Assembly (NCBI RefSeq): GCF_050920415.1
Contig: NZ_CP169309.1
Reading direction: 5' to 3' (one strand)
DNA from: Escherichia coli
Lineage (GTDB): Bacteria > Pseudomonadota > Gammaproteobacteria > Enterobacterales > Enterobacteriaceae
Length of the DNA: 64,000 bases
Position 1 is the first letter of the stretch; the number at the start of each line of letters is the position of its first letter. The position numbers and the translations under genes are program-made. The notes beneath the pieces are model-generated. The model saw only the letters and a list, made by a program, of their open reading frames with translations, searched no databases and was not told where the DNA came from. Of this stretch, positions 17,334-33,669 are shown piece after piece.

Positions 17334-18935
17334 TTATTCTTCTTCATCCCCGTTAAAGTTCGCCCGAGGAAGACAGGTGTATGCGCCCCAGTAATAAATT
17401 CCCAACGACATCAGCGCGACGACGATAGTATCCCACGGGTGCCCTATAATGCCGCTACCGCCAAAGCTACCCAGCCAGGAAAACAGCATAATCAGGGCAT
17501 AGAAGGCAATAAGCCACAATGAAGATTTAATCTGCTGCGCCAGGCTGACATGCTGAACAGGCACTTTCGACTTGCAACTCACGTAAACCACAAACATTAC
17601 GATTTGTAGCCCCAGCAGCCAGGAAAGCGTCCCCCAACCAGACCAAAAAACAATCAGTGCGGAAATCATAAAAGAGAGTGGGCCAAGCACCGCAAAACCA
17701 CGAACGCGGAACGGGCGCGGCATATCAGGTGCATTACGGCGCAGTCCTGCAGCTGTAACCGGCGCGATGGCGTAGCTCAGTACCAGAGCCGCAGAAACCA
17801 CGCTAATCAATTGCTCCCACGACGGGAACGGTAGCGTCCAGAAGATAGATAAACCAAACGTCAGCCACAGTGCCGGACGTGGAATACCTGACTCCTTATC
17901 GATATGAGTAAAGGTTTTAAAGAATGTCCCCGCCTTCGCCCAGCCATAGATCACACGCGGTGTCGCATTCATGTAAATATTGCCAGTGCCGCTGGGAGAC
18001 ACAATAGCATCACATACCACCATAAATGCCAGCCAGCCCATCCCGAGAGTAATGGCGATATCGCGATATGGCAGCGAATAGTTCTTACTGATCTCCGCCC
18101 AACCACCACTTAGCGATTCAGTTGGAATACTGCCCAAAAAGGCGACCTGCAACAGAACGTAGATGATGGTCGAGAGAATTACCGAGAGGATCAGCGCAAA
18201 TGGGATGGTACGTTGCGGATTTTGCGCCTCGCTGGCTACGGAGATAATCGGTGTCAGTCCAAGGTAAGCGAAGATAATCCCACCCGCGCTAATTGCCGCT
18301 TCCACTCCTGACATACCAAATGGAGCCATACCCTGTATATGCAGATTCTCCGGTTTGAAGAAGGCAAATAACGTTATTACCACCAGCAACGGCACCAGAA
18401 ACTTCAGCACGCTAATAAAATTGTTCGAGCGAGCGAAAGTTTTAACACTGTAGTAGTTCAGGGCAAAAAAGAAGCACAACAGTAAGAACTGCACCACCCA
18501 GCCTAACAGCGTCGGGTCACTACTCCCCGTCTGCGTCAGCGCAGGAAACCAGGCGGCGGCATATTGCCGTGCGGCTACAATCTCAATGGAGATCAGGCTG
18601 GAGAAGGCAATCAGGGTAATAAAACCCAGCAGATAGCCCATCAATTCGCCGTGCGAAAATACCGGGTAACGAATAATACCGCCCGCGCGGGGAAGCGCCG
18701 CCCCCAGTTCGCAGTAAATAATCCCCAGTAGCAGCACCGCAAAACCGCCAATAACCCAGGAAGCAATCCCTGCTGGGCCAGCGATCGATGCGACATGGCT
18801 GGCAGCAAACAGCCAGCCAGAACCGAAAATCGCCCCCAGACCAATAAAGGTCAAGTCGGTGAGCGTTAACTGCTTTTTAAACTTCCCCGACTCAACAACG
18901 ACGGTTTGCGTGCTTTGGGTAGAAGGAATTGTCAT
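17334..18935 (-). CDS. APC-superfamily amino-acid permease
   Basis: Polytopic membrane protein. The start was moved to the internal ATG at 18935 to remove a 40 bp overlap with the upstream gene. Confidence 0.8.
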   Translation of the reverse strand: MTIPSTQSTQTVVVESGKFKKQLTLTDLTFIGLGAIFGSGWLFAASHVASIAGPAGIASWVIGGFAVLLLGIIYCELGAALPRAGGIIRYPVFSHGELMGYLLGFITLIAFSSLISIEIVAARQYAAAWFPALTQTGSSDPTLLGWVVQFLLLCFFFALNYYSVKTFARSNNFISVLKFLVPLLVVITLFAFFKPENLHIQGMAPFGMSGVEAAISAGGIIFAYLGLTPIISVASEAQNPQRTIPFALILSVILSTIIYVLLQVAFLGSIPTESLSGGWAEISKNYSLPYRDIAITLGMGWLAFMVVCDAIVSPSGTGNIYMNATPRVIYGWAKAGTFFKTFTHIDKESGIPRPALWLTFGLSIFWTLPFPSWEQLISVVSAALVLSYAIAPVTAAGLRRNAPDMPRPFRVRGFAVLGPLSFMISALIVFWSGWGTLSWLLGLQIVMFVVYVSCKSKVPVQHVSLAQQIKSSLWLIAFYALIMLFSWLGSFGGSGIIGHPWDTIVVALMSLGIYYWGAYTCLPRANFNGDEEE

Positions 18936-28876: not shown

Positions 28877-28951
<75 letters not shown>

Positions 28952-29000
28952 AAATCCCCGGCCCGGACCTTCCGGGCTTTACGCATATCTGGAAGGCAAA

Positions 29001-29204
29001 ATGTTTGGTAACTTAGGACAGGCAAAAAAATATCTCGGCCAGGCGGCAAAGATGTTGATTGGCATTCCAGACTACGACAACTACGTCGAGCATATGAAGA
29101 CCAACCATCCCGACCAGCCGTACATGAGCTATGAAGAATTCTTCCGCGAACGCCAGAACGCGCGCTACGGCGGCGATGGTAAAGGCGGTATGCGCTGTTG
29201 TTAA
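29001..29204 (+). CDS. yjiX: small protein YjiX (YbdD/YjiX family, partner of CstA-type transporters)
   Basis: 67 aa from the internal ATG ([33 protein letters not shown]...); immediately downstream of btsT. Confidence 0.85.
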
Positions 29205-29214
29205 TGGAGAGAGC

Positions 29215-30171
29215 ATGAACCCGATTGCAGTTACCCTACTCACCGGTTTTTTAGGCGCAGGCAAAACCACCCTGCTGCGCCATATTCTTAATGAACAGCA
29301 CGGCTACAAAATTGCCGTGATTGAAAACGAATTCGGCGAAGTCTCCGTTGATGATCAACTGATTGGCGACCGCGCCACGCAGATCAAAACGCTGACCAAC
29401 GGCTGCATCTGTTGTTCGCGCTCCAACGAGCTGGAGGACGCGCTACTCGACCTGCTGGACAATCTCGACAAGGGCAATATTCAGTTCGATCGTCTGGTTA
29501 TTGAATGCACCGGCATGGCCGATCCCGGCCCGATTATTCAGACCTTTTTCTCCCATGAGATTTTATGCCAGCGCTACCTGCTGGACGGCGTGATTGCGCT
29601 GGTGGATGCGGTACATGCCGATGAGCAGATGAACCAGTTCACCATCGCCCAGTCACAGGTTGGCTACGCCGACCGTATTCTGCTGACCAAAACCGACGTC
29701 GCAGGCGAAGCAGAAAAACTGCGTGAACGCCTGGCGCGCATCAACGCCCGCGCACCGGTCTACACCGTCACCCACGGCAACATCGATCTGGGCCTGCTGT
29801 TCAACACCAACGGTTTTATGCTGGAAGAAAACGTTGTCAGCACCAAACCGCGTTTCCACTTTATCGCGGATAAACAAAACGATATTTCGTCGATTGTGGT
29901 AGAACTGGATTATCCGGTAGATATCAGCGAAGTTTCCCGCGTGATGGAAAACCTGCTGCTGGAATCGGCAGATAAACTGCTGCGTTACAAAGGGATGCTG
30001 TGGATTGACGGCGAACCTAATCGCCTGCTGTTCCAGGGCGTCCAGCGCCTCTACAGCGCCGACTGGGACCGCCCGTGGGGCGATGAAAAACCGCATAGCA
30101 CAATGGTGTTTATCGGGATTCAGCTGCCGGAGGATGAGATTCGGGCAGCGTTTGCGGGGTTGAGGAAGTAA
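29215..30171 (+). CDS. yjiA: COG0523/CobW-family GTPase YjiA
   Basis: 318 aa with P-loop GFLGAGKTTLL and a CxCC metal-binding motif (GCICCS). Confidence 0.92.
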   Translation: MNPIAVTLLTGFLGAGKTTLLRHILNEQHGYKIAVIENEFGEVSVDDQLIGDRATQIKTLTNGCICCSRSNELEDALLDLLDNLDKGNIQFDRLVIECTGMADPGPIIQTFFSHEILCQRYLLDGVIALVDAVHADEQMNQFTIAQSQVGYADRILLTKTDVAGEAEKLRERLARINARAPVYTVTHGNIDLGLLFNTNGFMLEENVVSTKPRFHFIADKQNDISSIVVELDYPVDISEVSRVMENLLLESADKLLRYKGMLWIDGEPNRLLFQGVQRLYSADWDRPWGDEKPHSTMVFIGIQLPEDEIRAAFAGLRK

Positions 30172-30204
30172 TTTTAGATGATGGCCGCCATGTGGCGGCC
30201 TGAA

Positions 30205-30507
30205 TTATTTTTTATTCTGATCGCGCAGCATCGCTTCACGTAAAATTGCGTTCAGGCGAGTTTGATAGCCTTTACCTGGTCGCTTCAACCATTCCATCAC
30301 ATCAGCATCAATACGCACCGAAGCCTGAGTTTTCAATGGCCGATAAAACTTACCGCGTTCTGCGTTAGACCATTGCTCATCGCTGGAAGGTGGGATATCA
30401 CTGTAATCAATATCTTCGTCGGATTTATTCGCCAGCGCCTTCAGTTCGGCCTCATGCTGCACATCGAGTGAAGAGGAGGTCCCTCGTTTATGTTTAACCA
30501 TGCTCAT
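30205..30507 (-). CDS. BrnA-like antitoxin (DUF4415/COG3514)
   Basis: 100 aa ORF; the C-terminal pattern YQTRLNAILREAML resembles BrnA-family antitoxins; its start overlaps the stop of a BrnT-like remnant. Confidence 0.6.
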   Translation of the reverse strand: MSMVKHKRGTSSSLDVQHEAELKALANKSDEDIDYSDIPPSSDEQWSNAERGKFYRPLKTQASVRIDADVMEWLKRPGKGYQTRLNAILREAMLRDQNKK

Positions 30508-30623
30508 AGCGGCTCCGTTCGTTGTGGCTCATCAAACACTAACACCGCATCTTCAAAGCGGATGCCATGTTTCACCCGATTACTTTTGGCCTTGTTTGCA
30601 TCCCATTCAAACTCCATTGGCAT
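30504..30623 (-). pseudogene. truncated BrnT-like toxin (DUF497) remnant, 39 codons
   Basis: My own translation of the minus strand gives MPMEFEWDANKAKSNRVKHGIRFEDAVLVFDEPQRTEPL*, which matches only the conserved N-terminus (FEWDxxKxxxNxxKHG..F..A..VF.DP) of roughly 90 aa BrnT toxins. Confidence 0.45.
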
Positions 30624-30819
30624 AGTTGCCATCCCCAATTGTATATACAAAAATGTATCTACAATCATTCTGCAATTATAGCGTTGATGTTGGAAATAGC
30701 ATCACGTTTTGGATAATCAACCATGAAATTGACAATGAGTGAGTTGGACTTGATTCATCCAATAGAATTTCTCGCCTGACATGGCACACTAAACACCTCG
30801 CTGTCGTTAAGGGATTACC

Positions 30820-31986
30820 GTGAAAAACTACAAAGTTATTACTCCGCTTTTTCCTACCTATGCGCAAGTTAAGGCTATGATGAAAGCCGTCTCAGGCTAT
30901 TCCCTGAAAGCGGTACGCAATATGATTACCGCCATTCACGAGCAAACCGGTACGCCGCAAAAACCCGTTGACTGGTCGGAACCTGACCTGTGGATCAGCG
31001 AACGCTTAACGGGTGAAGATGCCGACATCGCCCGTCGTATTTGGGATACCGATAATCACATATTGAACCCGCGCCACAGCTACGGCTGCTACTTATTTCT
31101 CAACTATCCTCAGTTTGAGCTGATGGAAAGCACGCCAGATGATACCTGGCAGCCCACCTCGCGCGGGCAAAAATTCCTGCAAGATGACGAAAAAACGCTG
31201 CGTTCACTGGACGACCAGGAAGGCATTCTGCAACTGCTTGAGCTGCTGGCTGGCCGGGAAATGTCGCGCCGCGCCGATTTATTGCCGGAATGGCAGGCCT
31301 TTTTGCATCAGCATTCGAAATTCGCGTCAGCAAGTTCAGTGAAAAGCACGCTCTACTCCCGTCTCTATAACCTTATCGACCGTGACATGGTTAACCGTGA
31401 AGGCATGAGCTATCGCATCACCGATACCGGGCGCGCCTGGCTTGGAAAAGCGTTGCCTGCACGAAAAAGCGATCCGCGTAAAGAGCTGTTGGAAGCGGTA
31501 AAACGCTATAACGAACAGCAAAAAGAGCTGCTGCGCGAACAAATCAGCACGATGAACCCGTACAAATTTGAGCAACTGGTTGGTCAATTACTGGAAGCAA
31601 TGGGCTACGAACAGGTTGAAGTGACCAAAGCCTCAGGCGACAAAGGTGTGGACGTGATTGGTCAGGTGCAGGTCGGCATCACCACTATTACCGAAGTGGT
31701 GCAGGTCAAAAGAATGCTGAACACTATCACTCGCCCGTATATCGACCAGTTGCGTGGGGCGTTGCCTTACCACAAAGCCATTCGCGGTACGCTCATCACC
31801 ACCGGGAAATTTGCGGCGAAATGTGCAGAAGCGGCGCTCTTTCCGGGTGCCGCGCCCATTACGCTTATCGACGGCGATCGTTTACTGGAACTGTTAATCG
31901 AAAATAACGTCGGCATTCGCCGCAGCAATGCAGTGGAATTGCTGGATGTAGATTTGCAGTTGTTTGATGAGCTGGAGATGGATTAA
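30820..31986 (+). CDS. Mrr-family (Mrr_cat, PD-(D/E)xK) restriction endonuclease with extended N-terminal region
   Basis: The C-terminal 150 aa carry an Mrr catalytic-domain pattern (GDKGVDVIG...EVVQVKR...ITTGKF); 388 aa in total; GTG start, exact start uncertain. Confidence 0.72.
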   Translation: MKNYKVITPLFPTYAQVKAMMKAVSGYSLKAVRNMITAIHEQTGTPQKPVDWSEPDLWISERLTGEDADIARRIWDTDNHILNPRHSYGCYLFLNYPQFELMESTPDDTWQPTSRGQKFLQDDEKTLRSLDDQEGILQLLELLAGREMSRRADLLPEWQAFLHQHSKFASASSVKSTLYSRLYNLIDRDMVNREGMSYRITDTGRAWLGKALPARKSDPRKELLEAVKRYNEQQKELLREQISTMNPYKFEQLVGQLLEAMGYEQVEVTKASGDKGVDVIGQVQVGITTITEVVQVKRMLNTITRPYIDQLRGALPYHKAIRGTLITTGKFAAKCAEAALFPGAAPITLIDGDRLLELLIENNVGIRRSNAVELLDVDLQLFDELEMD

Positions 31987-32049: not shown

Positions 32050-33669
32050 ATGGCCAAAGCACCAACTAAAAAAGCCAAAGCAAAAAAAGGCTTTGAAGAA
32101 ACATTATGGGATACCGCAAACCAGCTTCGCGGTAGCGTTGAATCCTCCGAATACAAGCACGTGGTGTTGAGCCTCGTGTTCCTGAAATTCATCAGCGATA
32201 AGTTTGAAGCACGCCGCAAAAAAATGATTGCCGATGGGCAAGCAGACTTCCTTGAGATGGAAGTGTTCTACCAGCAGGACAACATTTTCTACCTGCCGGA
32301 AGAGGCGCGCTGGTCATTTATCAAACAAAATGCCAAACAGGACGATATTGCGGTCCGTATTGACACCGCCCTCTCGACCATTGAGAAACGTAACCCAACG
32401 CTGAAAGGCGCGCTGCCAGACAACTACTTCAGCCGTCAGAATCTGGAAACCAAAAAACTGGCGTCACTGATTGATACCATCGACAACATCGAAACGCTGG
32501 CACACGAAACTGACGTTGAAACGTTATCGAAAGAAGACCTGGTCGGACGCGTTTACGAATACTTCCTCGGTAAGTTTGCCGCAACTGAAGGCAAAGGCGG
32601 TGGTGAGTTCTACACGCCTAAATGTGTGGTTACGCTGTTAACTGAAATGCTCGAACCCTTTCAGGGCAAAATTTATGACCCGTGCTGCGGCTCGGCAGGG
32701 ATGTTCGTGCAGTCGGTGAAGTTTGTCGAGAGCCATCAGGGTAAAAGTCGTGATATCGCGCTGTATGGTCAGGAACTGACAGCCACGACGTATAAACTGG
32801 CAAAAATGAACCTCGCTATTCGCGGTCTTTCAGCTAACCTCGGCGAACGACCGGCAAACACTTTCTTTAGCGACCAGCACCCGGACCTGAAAGCTGACTA
32901 CATTCTGGCGAACCCGCCGTTCAACCTGAAAGACTGGCGCAATGAAGCCGAATTAACCAAAGACCCACGTTTTGCTGGGTATCGTATGCCGCCAACCGGT
33001 AACGCCAACTACGGCTGGATTTTGCATATGCTCTCCAAGCTGTCGGCTAACGGCACAGCAGGTTTTGTACTGGCAAACGGTTCGATGAGTTCTAACACCA
33101 GCGGCGAAGGCGAGATCCGTGCACAGATGATCGAAAATGATCTGATCGACTGCATGATCGCCCTACCTGGACAGTTGTTTTACACCACGCAGATCCCGGT
33201 GTGTTTATGGTTTATGACCAAATCGAAGGCTGCCGACCCGGCCAAAGGTTATCGTGATCGTCAGGGCGAGACGCTGTTTATTGATGCGCGTAACCTCGGC
33301 ACCATGATTAGCCGCACAACTAAAGAGTTAACAGCGGAAGATATTGCCACAATCGCCGATACTTACCATGCCTGGCGCAGCACGCCGGAAGAACTGGCTG
33401 CACGGATTGCGCGTGGTGACAGCAAGCTGGAAAAATATGAAGACCAGGCTGGCTTCTGCAAAGTTGCGACCCTGCAAGACATTAAAGATAACGGCTACGT
33501 TCTGACACCGGGCCGCTATGTAGGTGCAGCCGAGCAGGAAGAGGACGGCGTGGCATTTGAGACCAAAATGCGTGAATTGTCGAAGACGTTGTTTGAGCAG
33601 ATGAAGCAGGCGGAAGAACTGGATCGTGCGATTCGCCAGAATCTGGAGGCGCTGGGTTATGGGGAGTAA
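32050..33669 (+). CDS. hsdM: Type I restriction-modification system N6-adenine DNA methyltransferase subunit
   Basis: 539 aa with an HsdM N-terminal domain, AdoMet motif DPCCGSAGMF and catalytic motif NPPF. Confidence 0.92.
   Translation: MAKAPTKKAKAKKGFEETLWDTANQLRGSVESSEYKHVVLSLVFLKFISDKFEARRKKMIADGQADFLEMEVFYQQDNIFYLPEEARWSFIKQNAKQDDIAVRIDTALSTIEKRNPTLKGALPDNYFSRQNLETKKLASLIDTIDNIETLAHETDVETLSKEDLVGRVYEYFLGKFAATEGKGGGEFYTPKCVVTLLTEMLEPFQGKIYDPCCGSAGMFVQSVKFVESHQGKSRDIALYGQELTATTYKLAKMNLAIRGLSANLGERPANTFFSDQHPDLKADYILANPPFNLKDWRNEAELTKDPRFAGYRMPPTGNANYGWILHMLSKLSANGTAGFVLANGSMSSNTSGEGEIRAQMIENDLIDCMIALPGQLFYTTQIPVCLWFMTKSKAADPAKGYRDRQGETLFIDARNLGTMISRTTKELTAEDIATIADTYHAWRSTPEELAARIARGDSKLEKYEDQAGFCKVATLQDIKDNGYVLTPGRYVGAAEQEEDGVAFETKMRELSKTLFEQMKQAEELDRAIRQNLEALGYGE

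What the first reader, a model, noticed from the sequence alone, without database searches (positions are those of the whole stretch)
30205..30623. Degraded BrnT/BrnA-like toxin-antitoxin pair: toxin cut to 39 codons, antitoxin apparently intact
Manual translation upstream of the 100 aa BrnA-like ORF gives a 39 aa peptide matching only the N-terminal motif of roughly 90 aa BrnT (DUF497) toxins; its TGA overlaps the brnA ATG. The toxin body appears deleted while the antitoxin is kept, which could be a decaying addiction module or an orphan antitoxin retained as anti-addiction protection.
Basis: partly seen in the sequence, partly recalled or inferred. Interest (0 to 1): 0.5.

Follow-up and report, generated by a model that had tools for sequence, protein, structure and literature searches.

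The report
Broken brnT toxin, intact brnA antitoxin
This is an E. coli BrnT/BrnA toxin-antitoxin operon whose toxin gene was destroyed by a 158-base internal deletion while the antitoxin gene stayed whole; it is an ordinary decayed module that public annotation already marks as a pseudogene.

Summary
On the minus strand, 30205-30507 is an intact 100-aa BrnA (Pfam PF14384, full model, E 3e-17). 30504-30623 is a 39-codon brnT remnant (PF04365, model positions 1-30 of 77) whose TGA overlaps the brnA ATG.

Other E. coli strains (E67, Nissle 1917) carry a 95-aa brnT at the same yjiA/Mrr-like locus. The window lacks 158 bases of it, so 34 native codons are followed by 5 frameshifted ones.

Among 5426 complete E. 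coli genomes:
- 1781 have full-length brnT DNA.
- 175 share exactly this deletion junction.
- About 155 carry other partial forms. All five I read have a separate 290-bp deletion that removes the promoter core and brnT codons 1-76.
- brnA DNA is full length in 2110 of 2112 carriers, and it is an intact ORF in all 15 orphan loci sampled.

RefSeq already labels the remnant "BrnT family toxin, incomplete, missing C-terminus".

Whether the orphan BrnA is kept by selection or has simply not decayed yet is unresolved. Close BrnT genes are rare on E. coli plasmids and absent from coliphages, which weakens the anti-addiction idea. Known kind, low interest.

The parts
30205..30507 (-). brnA, an intact 100-aa antitoxin gene. 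The N-terminal part binds the toxin; the C-terminal part is a ribbon-helix-helix DNA-binding region.
   Evidence: ORF. Pfam PF14384, model 1-68/68, E 3.1e-17. Residues 14-57 match the antitoxin chain 7VD7_B, E 1.4e-16. RefSeq calls it 'BrnA antitoxin family protein' WP_000063154.1 in the identical strain.
30504..30623 (-). brnT remnant ORF: 39 codons plus a TGA that overlaps the brnA ATG (ATGA).
   Evidence: Pfam PF04365, model 1-30/77 only. RefSeq marks it as a pseudogene: 'BrnT family toxin, incomplete, missing C-terminus'.
30522..30623 (-). Native BrnT codons 1-34, with one window-specific change, D32E.
   Evidence: tblastn 97% identity over aa 1-34; alignments.
30520..30521 (-). Junction of the net 158-bp deletion. 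brnT nucleotides 104-261 (codons 35-87) are missing, which shifts the reading frame.
   Evidence: Alignments with E67, Nissle and S1-KEN full-length alleles. The same junction occurs in 175 complete genomes and in 10 of 10 sampled loci.
30494..30520 (-). Former last 27 nt of brnT (codons 88-95 plus TAA), now read out of frame. It overlaps the first 14 nt of brnA, as in intact operons.
   Evidence: tblastn aa 88-95 at 30520-30497 (E 1.7, so it rests on the alignment). The E67 annotation shows a 14-nt brnT/brnA overlap.
30513..30516 (-). GGAG Shine-Dalgarno-like motif 5 nt upstream of the brnA ATG. It was retained after the deletion.
   Evidence: Read directly from the sequence. That it functions is inferred.
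30638..30665 (.). Inverted repeat (12-nt arms, 4-nt spacer, 92% complementary) between the putative -10 box and the brnT start. It is the probable BrnA operator.
   Evidence: the repeat finder I2. It is identical in all loci that keep the promoter. The operator role is inferred from known BrnA autoregulation (reviews PMC5086665, PMC11980606).
30675..30680 (-). Perfect TATAAT hexamer, a candidate -10 box of the brnTA promoter. The -35 is weak, so the consensus scan did not call it.
   Evidence: Sequence reading. The scan found no minus-strand promoter under its criteria, so this is inference only.
30183..30200 (.). GC-rich hairpin (7 G-C pairs) between the convergent yjiA and brnA genes. It is a terminator-like site.

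Best explanation
The locus is a chromosomal brnTA type II toxin-antitoxin operon. It has the toxin-first gene order and sits between yjiA and an Mrr-like restriction gene in the variable restriction-gene region of E. coli (the 'immigration control region'). The ribonuclease toxin gene has been inactivated by a net 158-bp internal deletion. Codons 35-87 are gone, and the frame shifts into a TGA that overlaps the brnA start. The product keeps only the N-terminal 34 residues. It lacks the entire beta-sheet scaffold and the equivalents of two of the five residues required for RNase activity in Brucella BrnT, so it cannot act as a toxin. The module therefore can no longer kill cells that lose it, arrest growth or abort phage infection. 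brnA remains a complete gene with its upstream promoter/operator region, a GGAG ribosome-binding motif and a fortuitous ATGA stop-start overlap. It is therefore probably still made, and at most represses its own promoter. The allele arose once and has been moved by homologous recombination onto several flanking haplotypes. It is a minority polymorphism: 175 of 5426 complete genomes. What is shown: the deletion, the frameshift, the intact brnA ORF, and the population counts. What is inferred: BrnA expression, autorepression, and the non-toxicity of the remnant.
For: Full-length 95-aa brnT lies at the same locus in E67, Nissle 1917 and S1-KEN. The 158-bp gap and frameshift are seen. Only Pfam BrnT model positions 1-30 of 77 remain. 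Mapping through the 3U97 alignment onto the residues listed in review PMC5086665: the Asp6 and Lys9 equivalents (D8, K11) are retained, and the Arg41 and Glu78 equivalents (R48, E88) are lost. BrnA matches the full Pfam model and the 7VD7_B antitoxin chain. The identical junction, including a GAACGG signature seen in no full-length allele at 100% query coverage (best 96.2%), is found in 175 genomes and in 10 of 10 sampled loci. These loci carry at least 4 different yjiA and Mrr-like protein alleles, and their brnA haplotypes are not monophyletic. That pattern indicates a single origin followed by recombination. Within the deletion class the brnT remnant shows 3 nonsynonymous and 0 synonymous segregating sites, including D8N at the catalytic Asp6 equivalent. 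The three full-length alleles show 1 synonymous and 0 nonsynonymous. RefSeq PGAP independently annotates the remnant as a brnT pseudogene.
Against: Nothing contradicts the pseudogene call. There are three uncertainties. (1) The junction differs from known full-length alleles by two adjacent bases (GAGAGG versus GAACGG). The event may therefore have been complex, or may have occurred in an unsampled allele; both changes are synonymous in the old brnT frame. (2) The consensus scan called no minus-strand promoter, so continued brnA transcription is inferred. (3) brnA is intact in all 15 sampled orphan loci, which could mean it is selected rather than inert.
Confidence: 0.9

Rival explanations
1. 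The orphan BrnA is actively maintained by selection after toxin loss. It would act either as immunity against incoming BrnT toxins on plasmids or phages (anti-addiction), or as a stand-alone ribbon-helix-helix regulator.
For: Two independent deletions destroyed brnT and both left brnA whole: the 158-bp class, and a 290-bp class next to GmrSD-Fic. brnA DNA is full length in 2110 of 2112 carrier genomes, against 1781 of 2111 for brnT. All 15 sampled orphan brnA copies are intact ORFs. There is no nonsynonymous change in codons 41-100, the DNA-binding half, although synonymous sites vary there. Pairwise pN/pS is 0.05-0.41.
Against: Most brnA polymorphisms in the orphan classes are shared with intact-pair alleles, so they predate toxin loss or came in by recombination. 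Only about 3 synonymous and 0 nonsynonymous sites in the DNA-binding half are specific to orphan classes, which is too few to test selection. Deletion-class-specific changes cluster in the toxin-binding segment (T13S, A24V, P40S), which fits relaxed constraint there. There is little for BrnA to protect against: 11 Escherichia plasmids among 761 records with a BrnT gene, most of them Acinetobacter at under 60% identity; 4 phage records, none a coliphage; and no paralogue in E. coli genomes. The 290-bp class has also lost the promoter core and operator.
Confidence: 0.25
2. The 39-codon ORF is the normal, functional form of the gene at this locus, or encodes a functional small protein.
For: It is an open frame with an ATG, it lies upstream of brnA, and it has a stop-start overlap.
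Against: 1781 genomes carry the 288-nt gene at the same position, and a close homologue of 94 aa has a solved structure (7VD7_A). The last 5 codons are frameshifted remains of the brnT 3' end. Within the deletion class the remnant accumulates only nonsynonymous changes, 3 to 0. PGAP flags it as a pseudogene.
Confidence: 0.02
3. The truncation is an assembly or sequencing artefact in this one genome.
For: None beyond the general possibility.
Against: The same junction is present in 175 independently sequenced complete genomes from varied hosts and countries and in 10 of 10 loci read base by base.
Confidence: 0.01

Closest known systems
BrnT/BrnA type II toxin-antitoxin system (Brucella abortus; Heaton et al. 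2012, as summarised in PMC5086665 and PMC11980606; Pfam PF04365 and PF14384)
   Same: The gene order is toxin-first with brnA overlapping the brnT 3' end. BrnA matches the full Pfam model. The BrnT N-terminal motif (FEWD..K..N..KHG) is present. An inverted repeat lies upstream, as expected for an autoregulated operon.
   Different: The toxin is cut to 34 native residues by a 158-bp frameshifting deletion, so the beta-sheet scaffold and the Arg41 and Glu78 equivalents are missing. It is therefore not a functional toxin-antitoxin pair. E. coli BrnT is only distantly similar to the Brucella protein (E 9e-4).
Intact E. coli chromosomal brnTA at the yjiA / Mrr-like locus (e.g. Nissle 1917 WP_001295743.1 / WP_000063148.1; E67 WP_001131965.1 / WP_000063158.1) and the solved homologous complex PDB 7VD7
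   Same: The locus, promoter region and brnA are the same (96-99% DNA identity).
   Different: The window allele lacks brnT nucleotides 104-261 and carries GAACGG instead of GAGAGG at the junction.
Orphan antitoxins from decayed chromosomal toxin-antitoxin loci in E. coli (survey PMC10790755; cross-interaction and anti-addiction review PMC7354431)
   Same: The antitoxin gene is left without a functional cognate toxin. The survey describes orphan antitoxins as highly abundant across E. coli sequence types.
   Different: That survey does not mention BrnT or BrnA (0 occurrences). Here the exact lesion, its single origin and its frequency are defined.

Membership tests
BrnT toxin (PF04365 / DUF497) | Match to the family profile over the whole domain (about 77 positions; proteins of about 80-100 aa) | tested here: not met
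   Only model positions 1-30 of 77 match (E 1e-7). The ORF has 39 codons, against 95 in full-length alleles.
BrnT toxin (PF04365 / DUF497) | Residues needed for RNase activity in Brucella BrnT: Asp6, Glu7, Lys9, Arg41, Glu78 (review PMC5086665) | tested here: not met
   Using the 3U97 alignment, D8 and K11 (equivalent to Asp6 and Lys9) are present. The E. coli family has Ala at the Glu7 position. R48 and E88 (equivalent to Arg41 and Glu78) lie in the deleted or frameshifted part.
BrnT toxin (PF04365 / DUF497) | Toxin-first operon with brnA immediately downstream and overlapping | tested here: met
   The remnant lies directly upstream of brnA with an ATGA overlap. Intact alleles have a 14-nt overlap.
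BrnT toxin (PF04365 / DUF497) | Growth inhibition or ribonuclease activity | not testable with these tools
   This needs expression and RNase assays.
BrnA antitoxin (PF14384 / DUF4415) | Full-length match to the family profile | tested here: met
   Model 1-68/68, residues 37-93, E 3.1e-17.
BrnA antitoxin (PF14384 / DUF4415) | Toxin-binding segment homologous to a structurally characterised antitoxin | tested here: met
   Residues 14-57 match chain 7VD7_B ('antitoxin'), E 1.4e-16.
BrnA antitoxin (PF14384 / DUF4415) | Intact ORF of normal length (100 aa in E. coli alleles) | tested here: met
   100 aa with no internal stop, the same length as in intact pairs.
BrnA antitoxin (PF14384 / DUF4415) | Neutralises BrnT and represses the brnTA promoter | not testable with these tools
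   An operator-like inverted repeat is present. Binding and neutralisation need experiments.
Functional type II toxin-antitoxin module | Both an active toxin and its cognate antitoxin are encoded | tested here: not met
   The toxin gene is disrupted. No second brnT exists in the window or in E. coli genomes at DNA level.

The most novel reading that the evidence does not exclude
The orphan BrnA is not a passive relic but is kept by selection. brnT has been destroyed at least twice independently in E. coli, by a 158-bp deletion and by a 290-bp deletion. Both alleles have spread across divergent backgrounds, brnA is intact in every sampled copy, and its DNA-binding half is invariant at protein level. 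BrnA would then serve as a stand-alone ribbon-helix-helix regulator or as immunity against incoming BrnT-type toxins in a defence-island setting.
Probability: 0.2. Interest if true: 0.4.

Novelty: already known. Interest (0 to 1): 0.13.

Why it matters
It matters little beyond correct annotation. The locus should be scored as an inactive toxin-antitoxin module (brnT pseudogene plus orphan brnA) in toxin-antitoxin or defence-system inventories. The population picture is a tidy example of the expected order of decay, toxin first and antitoxin spared: 84% of carriers have full-length brnT DNA, about 8% have this deletion, and about 7% have other truncations. It also gives a natural set of strains for asking experimentally whether an orphan antitoxin is retained for a reason.

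Tried and rejected
- **Structure model.** AlphaFold2 on the full-length E. coli BrnT from a single sequence gave a poor, almost all-helical model (mean pLDDT 61, pTM 0.34). It conflicts with the known beta-sheet fold, so I discarded it. Residue mapping used the 3U97 sequence alignment instead.
- **Family libraries.** NCBIfam gave no hit for BrnA, for the remnant or for full-length BrnT. PADLOC has no model that matches BrnT or BrnA.
- **Promoter.** The consensus promoter scan found nothing on the minus strand. The TATAAT at 30680-30675 is my own reading.
- **Ancestor allele.** I looked for a full-length ancestor carrying the junction signature GAACGG using a synthetic 79-nt query. The best full-coverage hits were 96.2% identical, so no such allele is in the complete-genome set. 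I considered a two-deletion model (14 + 144 bp, with GAACG coming from the internal CAAGAACGC). I could not distinguish it from one deletion plus two adjacent substitutions.
- **Literature.** Nothing was found for PDB 7VD7. The primary BrnT paper (PMC3320955) is not held, so Brucella facts come from reviews.
- **A second brnT.** Searches for a second brnT that the orphan BrnA might serve were negative in the window and in E. coli genomes in near and distant DNA modes.

Full report
**What is in the sequence**

The region lies between yjiA (29131-30171, +) and a 388-aa Mrr-like restriction gene (30820-31986, +), which is followed by hsdM. This is the variable restriction-gene region of E. coli, known as the immigration control region. 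Two features sit on the minus strand.
- A 100-aa ORF at 30205-30507.
- Upstream of it, an ORF whose last 39 codons, from the ATG at 30623, read MPMEFEWDANKAKSNRVKHGIRFEDAVLVFDEPQRTEPL*.

The TGA of the short ORF overlaps the ATG of the 100-aa ORF as ATGA.

- The 100-aa protein matches BrnA_antitoxin PF14384 across the whole model (1-68/68, E 3.1e-17).
- The short ORF matches BrnT_toxin PF04365 only over model positions 1-30 of 77 (E 1e-7).
- BrnA residues 14-57 also match the antitoxin chain of PDB 7VD7 (E 1.4e-16).

The coordinates and description in the finding are exact.

**Is the short ORF a truncation?**

Yes. A megablast of 30100-30900 against 5426 complete E. coli genomes finds the locus in thousands of strains. 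In many of them the match spans 959 bases rather than 801.

In strain E67 the same position carries a 288-nt, 95-aa "BrnT family toxin" that overlaps brnA by 14 nt. Nissle 1917 and S1-KEN-04-A are the same. A close homologue of the full-length protein has a solved structure (7VD7_A, 94 aa, E 2.6e-53).

Alignments show that the window lacks brnT nucleotides 104-261, a net 158 bases. The junction lies between 30521 and 30520. Because 158 is not a multiple of three, the frame shifts:
- 34 native codons are followed by RTEPL and the TGA;
- the former last eight codons (ERSRYEHG) are still there, in another frame, at 30520-30497 (the tblastn hit alone is weak, E 1.7; the alignment confirms it).

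I mapped the residues that review PMC5086665 lists as needed for Brucella BrnT RNase activity, using the 3U97 alignment.
- The remnant keeps the Asp6 and Lys9 equivalents (D8, K11).
- It has lost the Arg41 and Glu78 equivalents (R48, E88).
- It has also lost the whole four-stranded sheet.

From this I infer that it cannot be an active toxin.

**Population picture**

| Query | Genomes matched | Result |
|---|---|---|
| Full-length brnT | 2111 of 5426 | 1781 cover at least 80% of the gene |
| 64-nt probe across the deletion junction (E limit 1e-10) | 175 | all at full probe coverage, all chromosomal |
| brnA | 2112 of 5426 | 2110 at full length |

About 155 genomes remain with other partial brnT forms. 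All five that I read (L008, L009, L010, L017, L018) carry a different lesion.
- It is a 290-bp deletion that removes the TATAAT box, the operator repeat and brnT codons 1-76.
- It leaves 24 nt of the native upstream sequence joined to the last 61 nt of brnT.
- The remnant lies next to a GmrSD-Fic cassette.

So brnT has been destroyed at least twice while brnA was spared. The "full-length" counts refer to DNA coverage only. They would not reveal point frameshifts.

RefSeq PGAP already annotates the remnant as "BrnT family toxin, incomplete, missing C-terminus". This holds in strain MFDS1022581, which is 100% identical over the 801-bp locus probe, and in others. In a sub-lineage with extra substitutions it is labelled a "hypothetical protein" pseudogene.

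**Origin of the allele**

All 10 deletion loci read base by base share the junction CCACAAC|GAACGGAGCCGCTATG. Full-length alleles read GAGAGGAGCCGC (Nissle), GAGAGGAGTCGC (S1-KEN) or GAGAGGAATCGC (E67) at this point. No allele with GAACGG that covers the full synthetic query exists in the complete-genome set.

The shared and otherwise unique signature argues for a single origin. Both substitutions (GAG to GAA, AGG to CGG) are synonymous in the old brnT frame. They may therefore predate the deletion in an unsampled allele, or the event may have been complex. I cannot decide between these.

The deletion sits on at least four different yjiA and Mrr-like protein alleles. The window's brnA is closer to that of E67, an intact pair, than to other deletion alleles. 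I infer that recombination has moved the lesion between backgrounds.

**State of the two genes after the deletion**

| Gene or region | Loci sampled | Result |
|---|---|---|
| brnT codons 1-34, deletion class | 10 | 3 nonsynonymous, 0 synonymous segregating sites (D8N at the catalytic Asp6 equivalent, F30L, D32E) |
| brnT codons 1-34, full-length alleles | 3 | 0 nonsynonymous, 1 synonymous |
| brnA, both orphan classes | 15 | all intact 100-aa ORFs; nonsynonymous differences confined to codons 11-40; none in codons 41-100 although synonymous sites vary there; pairwise pN/pS 0.05-0.41 |

The remnant pattern fits relaxed constraint. The brnA pattern is suggestive of constraint on the DNA-binding half, but it is weak evidence. 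Most brnA polymorphisms are shared with intact-pair alleles. Only about three synonymous sites are specific to orphan classes.

**Expression signals**

These are read from the sequence and their function is inferred.
- A perfect TATAAT at 30680-30675 (-). The consensus scan did not call it because the -35 is weak.
- A 12-nt-arm inverted repeat at 30638-30665. It is conserved in every locus that keeps the promoter, and is the likely BrnA operator given known BrnA autoregulation (PMC5086665, PMC11980606).
- A GGAG motif 5 nt before the brnA ATG.
- A GC hairpin at 30183-30200, shared with the convergent yjiA gene.

BrnA is therefore probably still made.

**Anti-addiction idea**

There is little in E. 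coli for BrnA to act against.
- Of 761 plasmid records that encode a BrnT homologue, 563 are Acinetobacter and only 11 are Escherichia.
- Most plasmid homologues are below 60% identity; four exceed 95%.
- Four phage-collection records have a homologue; none is a coliphage and the closest is a Salmonella genome contig.
- No second brnT-like sequence exists in E. coli genomes by near or distant DNA search, nor in the window.

These results make the idea less likely, but they do not exclude it.

**Verdict**

The thing itself is a known kind: a decayed type II toxin-antitoxin module with an orphan antitoxin. Orphan antitoxins are reported as highly abundant in E. coli (PMC10790755), and public annotation already marks this remnant as a pseudogene. 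Interest is low. The only open point is whether the orphan brnA is retained by selection.

Noticed in passing
L008:1479-1852, L009, L010, L017:429-802, L018 (no equivalent in the window; the homologous upstream 24 nt are window 30687-30710): There is a second, independent way of orphaning brnA in E. coli. A 290-bp deletion removes the TATAAT box, the operator repeat and brnT codons 1-76. It leaves an intact brnA downstream of a GmrSD-Fic cassette and on the same strand as Fic. These loci carry three different BrnA protein alleles.
   Followed up: partly
window 30665-30676 (minus strand ATTGCAGAATG between the TATAAT box and the inverted repeat); absent in L003, L007, L014-L016: An 11-bp indel flanked by ATTG direct repeats moves the putative -10 box 11 bp closer to the operator in about half of the sampled 158-bp-deletion alleles. 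It was not seen in the three full-length alleles. Its effect on brnA expression is unknown.
   Followed up: partly
window 30820-31986 (+): The 388-aa neighbour, annotated as 'restriction endonuclease', matches the PADLOC candidate defence family PDC-S02 end to end (E 2e-206). It has an Mrr-like type IV nuclease C-terminal domain and is followed by a type I hsdM at 32050-33669. It is longer than the 304-aa K-12 Mrr as I recall it (not checked here).
   Followed up: partly
L002:3590-3959 (strain E67) and L005:138-1304 (strain S1-KEN-04-A): Other defence genes next to intact brnTA are decayed in some strains. In E67, hsdM and a type I restriction endonuclease-domain gene (hsdR-type) are reduced to fragments. 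In S1-KEN-04-A the Mrr-like gene has an internal stop.
   Followed up: no
window 28878-28953: A pair of inverted REP-like palindromic units (GCCGGATGCG...CCGGCCTAC / GTAGGCCGGATAAGGCG...CATCCGGCA) lies between btsT and yjiX. This is an ordinary E. coli intergenic repeat element.
   Followed up: no
PLSDB record NZ_LT985269.1 (22 kb E. coli 'plasmid'), 18484-18768: One E. coli record classed as a plasmid carries a brnTA 98% identical to the chromosomal one. It could be a genuine mobilised copy or a chromosomal contig mislabelled as a plasmid.
   Followed up: no
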